Of a DNA stretch of 64,000 nucleotides, positions 48,799 to 56,495 are shown one piece after another. Numbering within the stretch: position 1 is the stretch's first letter; each line of letters begins with the position of its first letter. This DNA is from Escherichia phage AV126. The position numbers and the translations under genes were made by a program. The DNA is taken from sequence record OR352956.1; one strand, written 5' to 3'. A model generated the notes under the pieces. The model had not been told where the DNA came from, did not search any database, and was given only the letters and a program-made list of their open reading frames with translations.

Positions 48799-49758
48799 TT
48801 AGATTCCAATGATAGTTGCTGCTCGTTTATCCTTGGATCTGGTGTTTGCTCTACTACGTGACAAACCGCCGCAAGATTCACAACGAATGATATCGAAAGA
48901 ACTTACCGCAGTGTGGTATTGTTTACCAGTAACAACGTGAACGTGATCACTGCCACAACGAGAACAACGGACCTTCTCATCTGGATAATAAGCGGATAAG
49001 TTAGGATGTTGTGGAATCCACGGAAGGATTTTCATATACAAATCACGGAGTGAAACAACATCACCATCATTGTAAATCTGCATACGTTCAAAAGCATCAC
49101 GATCACCTTCACAACATGCTTTCCATAAAGGGAAACCCTCGTTATCCAGTTTTTCACTTTCTGTTTCGAAATATGCTCCCATTTCTTTAAGGGAGTTGGA
49201 AGGAAGTGCAAATTGTTTCTTAGCCGCCTTCAATGTATCAACAACTACATAGTTAGAAGGAGGAGCCATATCGTGATATGCAAAGCGTTGGTTAATGTAT
49301 GCACGGTCAAACTTATATCCGTTGTGTGCCACAACTACATCTGCCTCATTTAGAAGGTTCCAAAGATCTTGGCAAAGCTCCCAATCATCTGTATGATCAA
49401 TGTCAAAAAGAGGATAAGAAGACAAGTTCTTACCTTCCACTTCACCAGTATACAGGTCAGCAGAAGAGTAAGATAACAAATAACCCCTACGAATTACTTG
49501 ATCTGGAGAAATGAAGGCTTTGAATCGACGGAAAGTATATGCAATCTCTGGTGCAGTTTCAACATCAATAATTTTAATAACTGGTTGTTTCTTTTTAACT
49601 GGCTCTTGTTTACTTGCTCCGAATCGTGCAAGGAAATCGTTCACTGTGCTTTTTCTTGTTGGACTACCTAAAACAATTGCTGCAATATTGCGAGAAGACA
49701 TACCCTCTGCACTCATACTAAGGATATCTGCTTTCTGCTCTTCTGTTAATCTGCTCAC
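48799..49758 (-). CDS. DnaQ-like (DEDD) 3'-5' exonuclease with N-terminal HTH region
   Basis: IKIIDVETAPE (Exo I DxE) and VVAHNGYKFDRAY (Exo II) motifs; two C-terminal CxxC pairs. Confidence 0.5.
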   Translation of the reverse strand: MSRLTEEQKADILSMSAEGMSSRNIAAIVLGSPTRKSTVNDFLARFGASKQEPVKKKQPVIKIIDVETAPEIAYTFRRFKAFISPDQVIRRGYLLSYSSADLYTGEVEGKNLSSYPLFDIDHTDDWELCQDLWNLLNEADVVVAHNGYKFDRAYINQRFAYHDMAPPSNYVVVDTLKAAKKQFALPSNSLKEMGAYFETESEKLDNEGFPLWKACCEGDRDAFERMQIYNDGDVVSLRDLYMKILPWIPQHPNLSAYYPDEKVRCSRCGSDHVHVVTGKQYHTAVSSFDIIRCESCGGLSRSRANTRSKDKRAATIIGI

Positions 49759-50873
49759 TCTTCCTCCTGTTGTGAGATGTATGACTGAAGCATACTCTCA
49801 AATGTTGTATCGTCGTTATCCCAGCGTTTCATGTATACCAACTGGAAAATTGTTTCTATCCATTCATCTGTTGTCATATGGACTTCTTCTCCATCCCAAG
49901 AAGTAAAATTAACACCATCTGGGAACCATGAGTAGTAAGTATCTTTAACTGTTTGGAAAAGCTCTGCTTGAGTTTTACAAGCTGAAAGAAGATTAAAACA
50001 AGTAATATCTCCAAACTTAATATCAAAATCTTGATAAGGTCGGATACTATCTGTTTTATCTCCCATTAGCATCTGATATGCTAACCAGTAACTGCCCCAA
50101 CCTTTAACTTCTTTCTTTTTACCTTTATCTACGACCCATATGTCGCCAATAGATTCATCAATAAGAATTATATCTGGGTTTTTAAAGACTCCATCTTCTT
50201 TGTAGAAATTAAAAAGGATACTAGGAGTATGTAAACTATCTTTATCTATAGACACTACGATATAAGAAAATTTACCCGTCCTTTTATAATCTTTATAACC
50301 CTGGAAACCATATTTCTCCAACTCATCGTCAGCCTCTATTACAGTAACAACATCACCATTGTGGAACTCCACAAGATAATCTTTGGTTTCTGAAAGCTGA
50401 AGTGGTTTGATATCTAACCGTTCAGATTTATATTCTACGGGCATTTTGAAGGCGTGTCTGAAAGTTTTTCCTACGCCAATAACTCCGCAATATTTTTCTA
50501 AACGTAGATGTTTTAGAATGCCTAAGACTTTTGTTTTAGCTGCTTGGAAGGTGTGTCCGATATCTTCTGGTGGGTATTGCTTATCAATGATTTCGAACTC
50601 TTCCTTTGTGAAGGGACGTTTGTTTTTGGAGGCTCTTTCTGCATTTGTATCTCCTAGCCAACCTCCAATTTTAGTCTTACTTTTACCCCAAAACTCTGTC
50701 TTATTTTTAAATTCCTTTTGAGCACCTGAAGGGATGTGCTTCGCAATGATTGTTCTTTTCTCTAATGCAGACGCTGCTTGGAAAGCGATCTGATCATAAT
50801 CAATTGCAGCTATTGTTTCTTCGTTGACATATAAATGAAGATCTTCAGGTTTAATTAAAATATAACCGCTAAT
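49755..50873 (-). CDS. T4 RNase H-like 5'-3' exonuclease / flap endonuclease (non-canonical start)
   Basis: blocks IAAIDYDQIAF, EYKSER, VIEADDEL, YIVVSIDKD and MGDKTDSI align in order with T4 RNase H; reading frame is open back to 50885 with no in-frame ATG/GTG/TTG upstream of 50444; start placed at ATT after a GGGGGA motif. Confidence 0.55.
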   Translation of the reverse strand: MSGYILIKPEDLHLYVNEETIAAIDYDQIAFQAASALEKRTIIAKHIPSGAQKEFKNKTEFWGKSKTKIGGWLGDTNAERASKNKRPFTKEEFEIIDKQYPPEDIGHTFQAAKTKVLGILKHLRLEKYCGVIGVGKTFRHAFKMPVEYKSERLDIKPLQLSETKDYLVEFHNGDVVTVIEADDELEKYGFQGYKDYKRTGKFSYIVVSIDKDSLHTPSILFNFYKEDGVFKNPDIILIDESIGDIWVVDKGKKKEVKGWGSYWLAYQMLMGDKTDSIRPYQDFDIKFGDITCFNLLSACKTQAELFQTVKDTYYSWFPDGVNFTSWDGEEVHMTTDEWIETIFQLVYMKRWDNDDTTFESMLQSYISQQEEE

Positions 50874-50885
50874 ATTTCCCCCTAG

Positions 50886-51095
50886 TTATTCATCGTCATC
50901 CTCTGTTGAGAATGTTTTAGTATACGGACATTGACGACTTTTCGGGATTGCTATAACTTCATCTTGGTTAGCGTTAGAATAGTAGCAATATTTTGTGTTG
51001 CCATTAACTTCAGAATCAGACAAGATTAAAGTAATTTGACCTGCTGCTACTGTGAAACTAAAAGCTAAAAGAACGACTGTCAGAATCTTTTTCAT
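50886..51095 (-). CDS. small secreted protein (signal peptide, two Cys)
   Basis: MKKILTVVLLAFSFTVAAGQ leader; acidic C-terminus. Confidence 0.5.
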   Translation of the reverse strand: MKKILTVVLLAFSFTVAAGQITLILSDSEVNGNTKYCYYSNANQDEVIAIPKSRQCPYTKTFSTEDDDE

Positions 51096-51167
51096 AACGC
51101 CTCCTAAAAAGCCTACCTCATTAAGTAGGTAGGCATAATATCATAACTAATCCCGCAAGTCAAGAAT

Positions 51168-56150: not shown

Positions 56151-56495
56151 TTAGTAGTGCACACGAATCATTTTAATACCATAACGCAGCATGGATTCTT
56201 TTGCAAGCATGAATTTATCCCCAGCGGCGGGATTAGAAGTATGCACGAAAATGGTGGGTGAACCAAAGCAAGGTTTACCAAACGCCAGAAGTTCTTCCAG
56301 GTACAGGAAAACATCATACCCATCTTGGTCTGACTCCATACCTAAATCATTGTCAAAAGACCACTCGGTTACTCTTCGATACAGTTTAGCAGGATCGTTG
56401 AGAAAGGCCATAGCTTCTTGTGACGTTTTAAACCAAATCGCATCCTCCTGTCCATAGTCGGCTGGGTTCCGCATATCATCTATCCAAACTTTCAT
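56151..56495 (-). CDS. hypothetical protein (114 aa)
   Basis: ORF in operon. Confidence 0.5.
   Translation of the reverse strand: MKVWIDDMRNPADYGQEDAIWFKTSQEAMAFLNDPAKLYRRVTEWSFDNDLGMESDQDGYDVFLYLEELLAFGKPCFGSPTIFVHTSNPAAGDKFMLAKESMLRYGIKMIRVHY

What the first reader, a model, noticed from the sequence alone, without database searches (positions are those of the whole stretch)
49755..50885. RNase H/flap-endonuclease gene with no canonical start codon, in frame with the upstream secreted-protein gene
The conserved N-terminal blocks of a T4 RNase H-like nuclease (IAAIDYDQIAF, EYKSER) lie upstream of the first ATG (50444) of the track ORF. The frame is open from 50885 and contains no ATG, GTG or TTG before 50444. 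It starts immediately after the TAA of the 69 aa signal-peptide gene, in the same frame, and a GGGGGA motif precedes an ATT codon at 50871-50873. This points to initiation at ATT/ATA, or less plausibly to stop-codon readthrough.
Basis: seen in the sequence. Interest (0 to 1): 0.5.

Follow-up and report, generated by a model that had tools for sequence, protein, structure and literature searches.

The report
Phage nuclease gene starting at ATT
A phage flap-endonuclease-type 5'-3' exonuclease gene begins at a weak ATT codon rather than ATG/GTG/TTG, its relatives keep a weak start at the same site, and most database records therefore list a truncated protein.

Summary
On the minus strand the frame is open from 50885 to 49755. 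It has no ATG, GTG or TTG before 50444, yet the 143 codons upstream of that ATG are homologous coding sequence under purifying selection. The window is a phAPEC8-like Phapecoctavirus.

Comparative evidence places the start at ATT 50873-50871, 4 nt after GGGGG. That SD-to-start spacing is the commonest in this window. In 35 distinct relatives (49-100% identity) the same site holds ATT, ATC, ATA or CTG, and never a canonical start. Four lineages have an in-frame TAA directly before it. Codon 2 stays Ser through AGY/TCN switches.

Readthrough or fusion with the upstream secreted-protein gene is rejected, because the frame relation and even the upstream gene vary between relatives.

One GenBank record (ESCO13) already annotates the ATT start. 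The others sampled are truncated. This is a new member of a known kind (infC/pcnB-type starts). Translation from the ATT has not been shown experimentally.

The parts
49755..50873 (-). Full-length 5'-3' exonuclease / flap-endonuclease-family CDS: 372 codons plus TGA, starting at ATT.
50871..50873 (-). Proposed start codon ATT (near-cognate; inferred to be read as fMet).
   Evidence: The homologous codon is ATT, ATC, ATA or CTG in every Stephanstirmvirinae-like relative. An in-frame TAA lies directly before it in L017, L030, L032 and L034. Amino-acid conservation begins here, and codon 2 is Ser encoded by AGY or TCN. ESCO13 annotates this start.
50878..50882 (-). Shine-Dalgarno element GGGGG (GGAGG in most relatives), 4 nt before the ATT.
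   Evidence: GG[AG]GG lies 4-5 nt upstream of the start in all loci. GGAGG-N4-start is the commonest geometry in this window, 20 of 38 cases.
50445..50870 (-). N-terminal codons 2-143, left unannotated in most database records.
   Evidence: pN 0.16-0.35 against pS 0.70-0.87 versus relatives, similar to the C-terminal part. Contains invariant D25 and near-invariant D27 and predicted strands 16-25, 39-46, 93-100 and 127-137.
50442..50444 (-). Internal ATG (Met144), wrongly used as the start in most annotations.
   Evidence: Annotated start. No Shine-Dalgarno element upstream of it. The position is Leu in several of the more divergent relatives. It lies inside the region that matches PF02739 in relatives.
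50886..51095 (-). Upstream 69-aa signal-peptide gene (PHROG 4641). Its TAA ends 12 nt before the ATT.
   Evidence: phi92 gp086 carries a sig_peptide annotation. An upstream ORF ends 1-18 nt before the start in nearly all relatives.
48799..49758 (-). Downstream 3'-5' exonuclease-like gene. Its GTG start overlaps the nuclease TGA stop (GTGA).
   Evidence: Relatives' products hit PF13482 RNase_H_2.

Best explanation
The region encodes one intact 372-residue 5'-3' exonuclease of the flap-endonuclease (FEN) fold. Its translation starts at the near-cognate codon ATT (50873-50871, minus strand), placed 4 nt after a strong Shine-Dalgarno element. Shown: the frame, the homology, the fold, the purifying selection on the N-terminal part, and the position and conservation of the start site. 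Inferred: the ATT is read by initiator tRNA as fMet. Because AUU, AUC, AUA and CUG initiate at roughly 1-2% of AUG in E. coli and are discriminated against by IF3, the gene is probably expressed at a low and/or IF3-sensitive level, as infC is. Initiation may be helped by ribosomes terminating on the upstream ORF 12 nt away. The lack of any canonical start at this site across the whole subfamily suggests that the weak start is kept by selection, for example to limit a potentially harmful nuclease.
For: 1. Homology and coding. 899 of 950 phage tblastn hits cover at least 80% of the 376 residues. The N-terminal 143 codons show pN 0.16-0.35 against a saturated pS of 0.70-0.87, like the C-terminal part.

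3. Bracketing of the start. Four lineages have an in-frame TAA immediately before the ATC. Codon -1 is not conserved. Codon 2 is Ser through AGC/AGT/TCT/TCA, and codons 3-8 differ mostly by synonymous changes.

4. Start codon and geometry. Among 35 distinct relatives the site holds ATT 16, ATC 12, ATA 5 and CTG 2. Within the 49-100% identity clade none has ATG, GTG or TTG, and there are at least 10 switches among the four codons. All have GG[AG]GG 4-5 nt upstream, which is this phage's commonest geometry. Outgroups carry TTG, GTG or ATG at the same place.

5. Match with experiment. These four codons are exactly the near-cognate class that initiates at 1-2% of AUG in E. coli (bioRxiv 10.1101/063800). 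infC uses AUU or AUC and is autoregulated by IF3 (PMC5499595).

6. Independent annotation. ESCO13 (KX552041.2) lists the 372-aa CDS from this ATT.
Against: No protein-level or ribosome-profiling evidence was available, so initiation at the ATT is inferred from comparative genomics only.

Near-cognate codons are inefficient, so an enzyme needed for replication might seem under-supplied. infC shows that AUU genes can still be well expressed.

The argument for selection against ATG is suggestive only. It rests on about 10 observed switches with no phylogenetically rigorous test.

An upstream ORF ending close by is common in packed phage genomes, so translational coupling is not specifically supported.

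The window protein itself has no Pfam hit, and relatives hit PF02739 only below the gathering score.
Confidence: 0.85

Rival explanations
1. Stop-codon readthrough, or a translational fusion with the upstream 69-aa signal-peptide gene, supplies the N-terminus.
For: In the window and in the KP13-26-like lineage the two ORFs are in frame, separated by a single stop. One database protein (P0005, 444 aa) looks like such a fusion.
Against: The frame relation is 0, 1 or 2 in different relatives. BI-EHEC differs from the window by a 2-nt insertion upstream of the ATT. Some relatives have a methyltransferase, an HNH gene or an extra 34-aa ORF upstream instead. Four lineages carry a second in-frame TAA directly before the start. 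P0005 is an artefact: its DNA has TAG, which the gene caller read as Q. A cleavable signal peptide on a replication nuclease makes no biological sense.
Confidence: 0.02
2. The real product is the annotated 229-aa ORF from ATG 50444, and the upstream 143 codons are a decaying remnant or non-coding.
For: This is what gene callers and almost all GenBank and RefSeq records give.
Against: The upstream part is under purifying selection, stays open in all relatives and is homologous across about 900 phages. It holds invariant D25 and four predicted N-terminal strands (residues 16-25, 39-46, 93-100, 127-137). Met144 has no Shine-Dalgarno element, is Leu in several more divergent relatives, and lies in the middle of the PF02739-matching region. 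Callers pick different internal starts in different genera. The phi92 annotators noted 'No RBS identified; weak Prodigal statistics' for theirs.
Confidence: 0.03
3. Initiation occurs at another non-canonical codon nearby, such as the ATT codons at positions 5 or 7, or a codon upstream of the proposed ATT.
For: Several ATT/ATA codons lie within the first 8 codons. phiWec181, L036 and L045 have two adjacent near-cognate codons.
Against: The downstream ATT codons sit 16 and 22 nt from the Shine-Dalgarno element, far outside the 4-9 nt range seen in this genome. Ser2 is kept through AGY/TCN switches, so codon 2 is translated. Upstream codons are not conserved and are a stop in four lineages.
Confidence: 0.05
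4. Assembly or sequencing error hides a canonical start, or programmed frameshifting brings ribosomes in from the upstream ORF.
For: A G5 homopolymer sits just upstream. BI-EHEC shows G7 there.
Against: The same start region is found in 64 independently sequenced phages, and the near-cognate state holds in about 30 divergent lineages from many laboratories and metagenomes. There is no conserved slippery site, no conserved frame offset and no conserved upstream gene. Most relatives have GGAGG rather than a homopolymer.
Confidence: 0.01

Closest known systems
E. coli infC (IF3) and pcnB: chromosomal genes that start at AUU
   Same: A near-cognate AUU or AUC start that is phylogenetically conserved behind a functional Shine-Dalgarno element. 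The codon class is discriminated against by IF3.
   Different: This is a phage nuclease gene, not a host translation or RNA-metabolism gene. The site drifts among all four near-cognates, including AUA and CUG. No feedback loop is evident, and IF3 dependence is untested.
Streptomyces sigR: GTC start repressed by IF3 (PMC5472188, seen)
   Same: A non-canonical start used as a regulatory device that makes translation sensitive to IF3.
   Different: Different codon, organism and gene function. For sigR the regulation was shown experimentally; here it is only a hypothesis.
T5 D15 flap endonuclease, T4 RNase H, E. coli ExoIX and the Pol I 5' nuclease domain (FEN / PIN-like 5' nucleases)
   Different: 372 residues against about 250-300, with insertions. 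Sequence identity is only 12-20%. There is no Pfam hit above the gathering score. Activity has not been tested.
Orthologous exonuclease of Vequintavirinae (rV5-like) and other phages, PHROG 107
   Same: Same protein family with a homologous N-terminus (M-G/S-Y-P...), and a GGAGG element at the N4 spacing in those read (KNP2, 2L372X, nimi, Erwinia).
   Different: Those use canonical starts: TTG in nimi, Erwinia pEp_SNUABM_01, Aeromonas 2L372X and KNP2; GTG in GAP31 and ICP1; ATG in others. They are therefore annotated at full length.

Membership tests
FEN / 5'-3' exonuclease superfamily (T5 D15, T4 RNase H, ExoIX, Pol I 5' nuclease) | PIN-like alpha/beta nuclease fold | tested here: met
FEN / 5'-3' exonuclease superfamily | Conserved metal-binding carboxylates: the Asp after strand 1, ExDD, DxD and GDxxD | tested here: met
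   D25, E180, D182, D183, D210, D212, D272 and D275 are invariant in 35 diverse homologues. The EADD, DKD and GDxxD motifs align with those of the Taq 5' nuclease (E 0.19). The equivalence of D25 to T5 D26 or T4 D19 is inferred from its position at the end of predicted strand 16-25; it was not aligned residue by residue.
FEN / 5'-3' exonuclease superfamily | Match to Pfam 5_3_exonuc_N (PF02739) above the gathering score | tested here: not met
   The window protein has no hit at E <= 1. Relatives score 24-28 bits against a cut-off of 34.3, with E about 1e-6. This is a divergent branch, so membership rests on fold and motifs.
FEN / 5'-3' exonuclease superfamily | 5' flap or 5'-3' exonuclease activity | not testable with these tools
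   Needs biochemistry.
Genes with a near-cognate (non-AUG/GUG/UUG) start, infC/pcnB type | Conserved coding sequence extends upstream of every canonical start codon | tested here: met
   143 conserved codons under purifying selection lie before the first ATG.
Genes with a near-cognate start, infC/pcnB type | Near-cognate codon at normal spacing from a Shine-Dalgarno element, conserved in orthologues | tested here: met
   GG[AG]GG-N4/5-(ATT/ATC/ATA/CTG) in all 35 distinct relatives. N4 is the commonest spacing in this window.
Genes with a near-cognate start, infC/pcnB type | N-terminal fMet/Met of the protein mapped to that codon | not testable with these tools
   No proteomic or ribosome-profiling data were available.
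Genes with a near-cognate start, infC/pcnB type | IF3-dependent repression of initiation | not testable with these tools
   Inferred only from what is known about AUU, AUC, AUA and CUG.
Programmed stop-codon readthrough or frameshift fusion | Conserved frame relation and conserved upstream partner ORF | tested here: not met
   The frame offset is 0, 1 or 2, and the upstream gene varies. An extra in-frame TAA is present in four lineages.

The most novel reading that the evidence does not exclude
The weak start is an actively maintained regulatory device. Across a whole phage subfamily the replication/repair nuclease is kept on an IF3-discriminated near-cognate codon (AUU, AUC, AUA or CUG) behind a perfect Shine-Dalgarno element. 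Its synthesis would then track the host's initiation-fidelity state (the IF3-to-ribosome ratio, ppGpp, temperature) or depend on re-initiation after the upstream ORF. That would make it a phage counterpart of infC-type control. The CTG-to-ATH switches, whose only initiation-competent one-step intermediate is ATG, hint that ATG has been visited and rejected.
Probability: 0.3. Interest if true: 0.65.

Novelty: new member of a known kind. Interest (0 to 1): 0.45.

Why it matters
Practical value. Most of the 64 Phapecoctavirus records matched here, and every Justusliebigvirus record inspected, list a truncated nuclease of 229 or 345 residues. The same holds for metagenomic relatives. The truncated forms lack the first catalytic Asp, and the 229-residue form also lacks about half of the fold. 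This propagates into protein databases and into function prediction for phages that are being developed for therapy. The correct CDS in the window is 50873-49755.

Biological value. According to the literature read here, only infC and pcnB are confirmed non-canonical starts in E. coli. A coliphage gene family that has kept a near-cognate start through divergence down to 49% identity, cycling through exactly the four codons that initiate measurably in E. coli, is a clean natural system. It could be used to test whether weak or IF3-sensitive initiation is selected, and whether phages exploit the host's initiation fidelity.

Tried and rejected
- Single-sequence searches of the window protein gave nothing useful: Pfam and PDB. 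The fold was established only after building an alignment.
- The 35-sequence alignment was too divergent for a collection scan. A narrower alignment was used instead.
- The apparent natural fusion protein P0005 (444 aa) turned out to be a gene-caller artefact: TAG read as Gln.
- dN/dS could not be computed, because synonymous sites are saturated in most pairs. Raw pN and pS are reported instead.
- I looked for other near-cognate-start genes in the window. Every other 'SD + N4-5 + ATT/ATA/CTG' match has a canonical start within nine in-frame codons, and the candidate at 56151-56438 lies inside a normal ATG gene.
- RNA folding around the start shows no unusual structure (z = 0.18), so a structural element was not pursued.
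- The apparent 119-nt gap in L046/L047 seemed to argue against translational coupling. It in fact holds a 34-aa ORF that ends 15 nt before the ATT.
- Literature searches found no paper that discusses this start codon.

Full report
**What is in the sequence**

On the minus strand, the 69-aa signal-peptide gene (51095-50886) ends with TAA at 50888-50886. The same frame then stays open for 376 codons, down to TGA at 49757-49755. The first ATG, GTG or TTG in that frame is the ATG at 50444-50442. The sequence after the TAA reads CTA GGG GGA AAT ATT AGC GGT TAT ATT TTA. So a GGGGG run (50882-50878) is followed by four bases and then by ATT (50873-50871).

EYKSER lies just downstream of the ATG (MPVEYKSER), not upstream of it.

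A stretch of 147 codons with no canonical start is the extreme of the window. It is the longest among 106 open frames of at least 100 codons.

**What the window is, and how others annotate the locus**

The window is a phAPEC8-like Phapecoctavirus of the subfamily Stephanstirmvirinae. Sixty-four phage genomes match this locus at 95-99% identity.

Almost all of these records annotate only the 229-aa ORF from the ATG and leave about 440 nt unannotated. In the sister genus Justusliebigvirus an internal GTG is used, which gives 345 aa. The phi92 annotators wrote 'No RBS identified; weak Prodigal statistics' for that start. In metagenome-derived proteins, gene callers choose many different internal codons as the start.

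One record is different. ESCO13 (KX552041.2 / NC_047770.1) annotates a 372-aa 'putative exonuclease' that starts exactly at this ATT, with an RBS feature. The genome announcement for that phage does not mention it.

**The upstream 143 codons are real coding sequence**

- tblastn with the full open frame finds 950 phage records, and 899 of them cover at least 80% of the query.
- Against relatives of 50-83% identity, the N-terminal 143 codons show pN of 0.16-0.35 while pS is saturated at 0.70-0.87. The C-terminal part behaves the same way.
- An alignment-based AlphaFold2 model of the 372-residue protein is very confident, with pLDDT 95.3 and pTM 0.88.
- D25, E180/D182/D183, D210/D212 and D272/D275 are invariant across 35 diverse homologues. 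The last three motifs align with those of the Taq 5' nuclease.
- Relatives hit Pfam PF02739 below the gathering score, over residues of about 85-200.

Met144 therefore lies in the middle of the nuclease domain. A 229-residue product would lack D25 and the four predicted N-terminal strands (residues 16-25, 39-46, 93-100, 127-137).

**Where translation starts**

I collected the locus from GenBank phages, IMG/VR, metagenomes and public assemblies, and read the region between the upstream in-frame stop and the conserved block.

In every relative from 49% to 100% protein identity there is a GGAGG or GGGGG element, followed 4 nt (in some lineages 5 nt) later by a near-cognate codon. Among 35 distinct proteins the counts are ATT 16, ATC 12, ATA 5 and CTG 2. 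None has ATG, GTG or TTG at this site. The remaining two proteins in that set are outgroups that use TTG.

Three observations bracket the start at this codon:

1. In four lineages (L017, L030, L032, L034) an in-frame TAA lies directly before the ATC, so the start cannot be further upstream.
2. The codon before the site is not conserved. It encodes N, I, V, R, K, S, F or L, or is a stop.
3. The codon after the site is Ser, encoded by AGC, AGT, TCT or TCA. That switch requires selection on the amino acid. Codons 3-8 differ mostly by synonymous changes.

GGAGG-N4-start is also the commonest arrangement for canonical starts in this window, accounting for 20 of 38 cases.

More distant families have a canonical codon at the homologous position:

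- TTG in nimi, Erwinia pEp_SNUABM_01, Aeromonas 2L372X and KNP2.
- GTG in GAP31 and ICP1.
- ATG in other relatives.

Their N-termini align with the one proposed here: (M)GYP... and (M)SYPY... against (M)SGYIL....

**Rejected alternatives**

Readthrough or fusion with the upstream gene fails as an explanation.

- The frame offset between the two genes is 0, 1 or 2 in different relatives.
- The upstream gene is sometimes a methyltransferase, an HNH gene or an additional 34-aa ORF.
- A 444-aa 'fusion' protein in the database is an artefact of a gene caller that read TAG as Gln. Its DNA has TAG.

Sequencing error is excluded by the number of independent genomes. No other gene in the window shows the same pattern. 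The RNA around the start is not unusually structured.

**Mechanism**

The start site and its conservation are shown. Decoding of the ATT by initiator tRNA is inferred.

The four codons seen at this site are exactly the class reported to initiate at 1-2% of AUG in E. coli. Only infC and pcnB are listed there as confirmed natural non-canonical starts in that species (bioRxiv 10.1101/063800). infC uses AUU or AUC throughout bacteria, and IF3 represses it through that codon (PMC5499595).

By analogy, the phage nuclease is probably made at a low or IF3-sensitive rate, with a near-perfect Shine-Dalgarno element as compensation. An upstream ORF ends 1-18 nt before the start in nearly all relatives, so termination-coupled initiation may contribute. 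That arrangement is common in phages, however, and is not specific evidence.

The codon switched at least 10 times among the four near-cognates without ever landing on a canonical start, even though synonymous sites are saturated. This suggests selection against a strong start. It is suggestive only, not a formal test.

**Novelty and score**

Near-cognate starts are a known phenomenon, and one database record already annotates this one. It is therefore a new member of a known kind.

Two things appear to be unreported in the literature searched. One is the conservation of the weak start across the whole clade, cycling through all four near-cognate codons. The other is the systematic mis-annotation in most related genomes sampled.

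Interest is moderate at 0.45. The finding gives a solid annotation correction and a good natural test case for regulation through the start codon. It does not describe a new mechanism.

Noticed in passing
window 51105-51163 (minus strand): A good sigma-70-like promoter (TTGACT, 17-nt spacer with TG, TATTAT; 10 of 12 matches) is followed directly by a GC-rich hairpin plus a T-run. Other records annotate that hairpin as the terminator after the rdgC-like gene. The AGGAGG-ATG of the 69-aa signal-peptide gene comes next. Transcripts from this promoter would begin at or in the terminator hairpin.
   Followed up: partly
window 49755-49758 (minus strand): The nuclease stop TGA overlaps the GTG start of the downstream 3'-5' exonuclease-like gene (GTGA). 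Relatives' products of that gene hit PF13482. This is a typical translational-coupling junction.
   Followed up: no
L025 1700-1720 (Logan SRR30397360 contig); protein P0005: A 444-aa database protein that fuses the signal-peptide gene to the nuclease is a gene-caller artefact. The DNA has TAG, and the caller evidently used a code in which TAG means Gln. Such false fusions may be common in that protein collection.
   Followed up: yes
L051 versus L052, about 700-800: Two contigs encode the same exonuclease body (identical from MIDYDQ onward) but have different 5' ends. The start codons differ (CTG against ATT), as do the first roughly 25 codons and the upstream neighbours (an HNH endonuclease against small ORFs). 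There appears to be a mosaic or recombination junction right at the gene start.
   Followed up: partly
L046 596-702 (also L047): In one lineage an extra 34-aa ORF with a hydrophobic, transmembrane-like segment (GTG to TAA) sits between the signal-peptide gene and the nuclease. It ends 15 nt before the ATT, so the 'upstream ORF ends close by' arrangement is preserved.
   Followed up: partly
L006 (BI-EHEC OL505078.1) about 712-730: A 2-nt GG insertion in the G-run upstream of the ATT (G7 instead of G5). It shifts the nuclease frame relative to the upstream gene but leaves the ATT intact. It could also be a homopolymer sequencing error.
   Followed up: no
phage records MG065650.1, OP562383.1, MH252123.1 and MG0656xx: Records named Campylobacter, Acinetobacter, Klebsiella or Serratia phage are about 99% identical at this locus to E. 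coli Phapecoctavirus or Justusliebigvirus. The host labels may be wrong or reflect contamination.
   Followed up: no
L060 458 (phi92 FR775895.2, gp085): The phi92 annotators flagged their internal GTG start with 'No RBS identified; weak Prodigal statistics'. This was an early sign that the called start is wrong. That start removes the first 28 residues, including the invariant Asp.
   Followed up: yes
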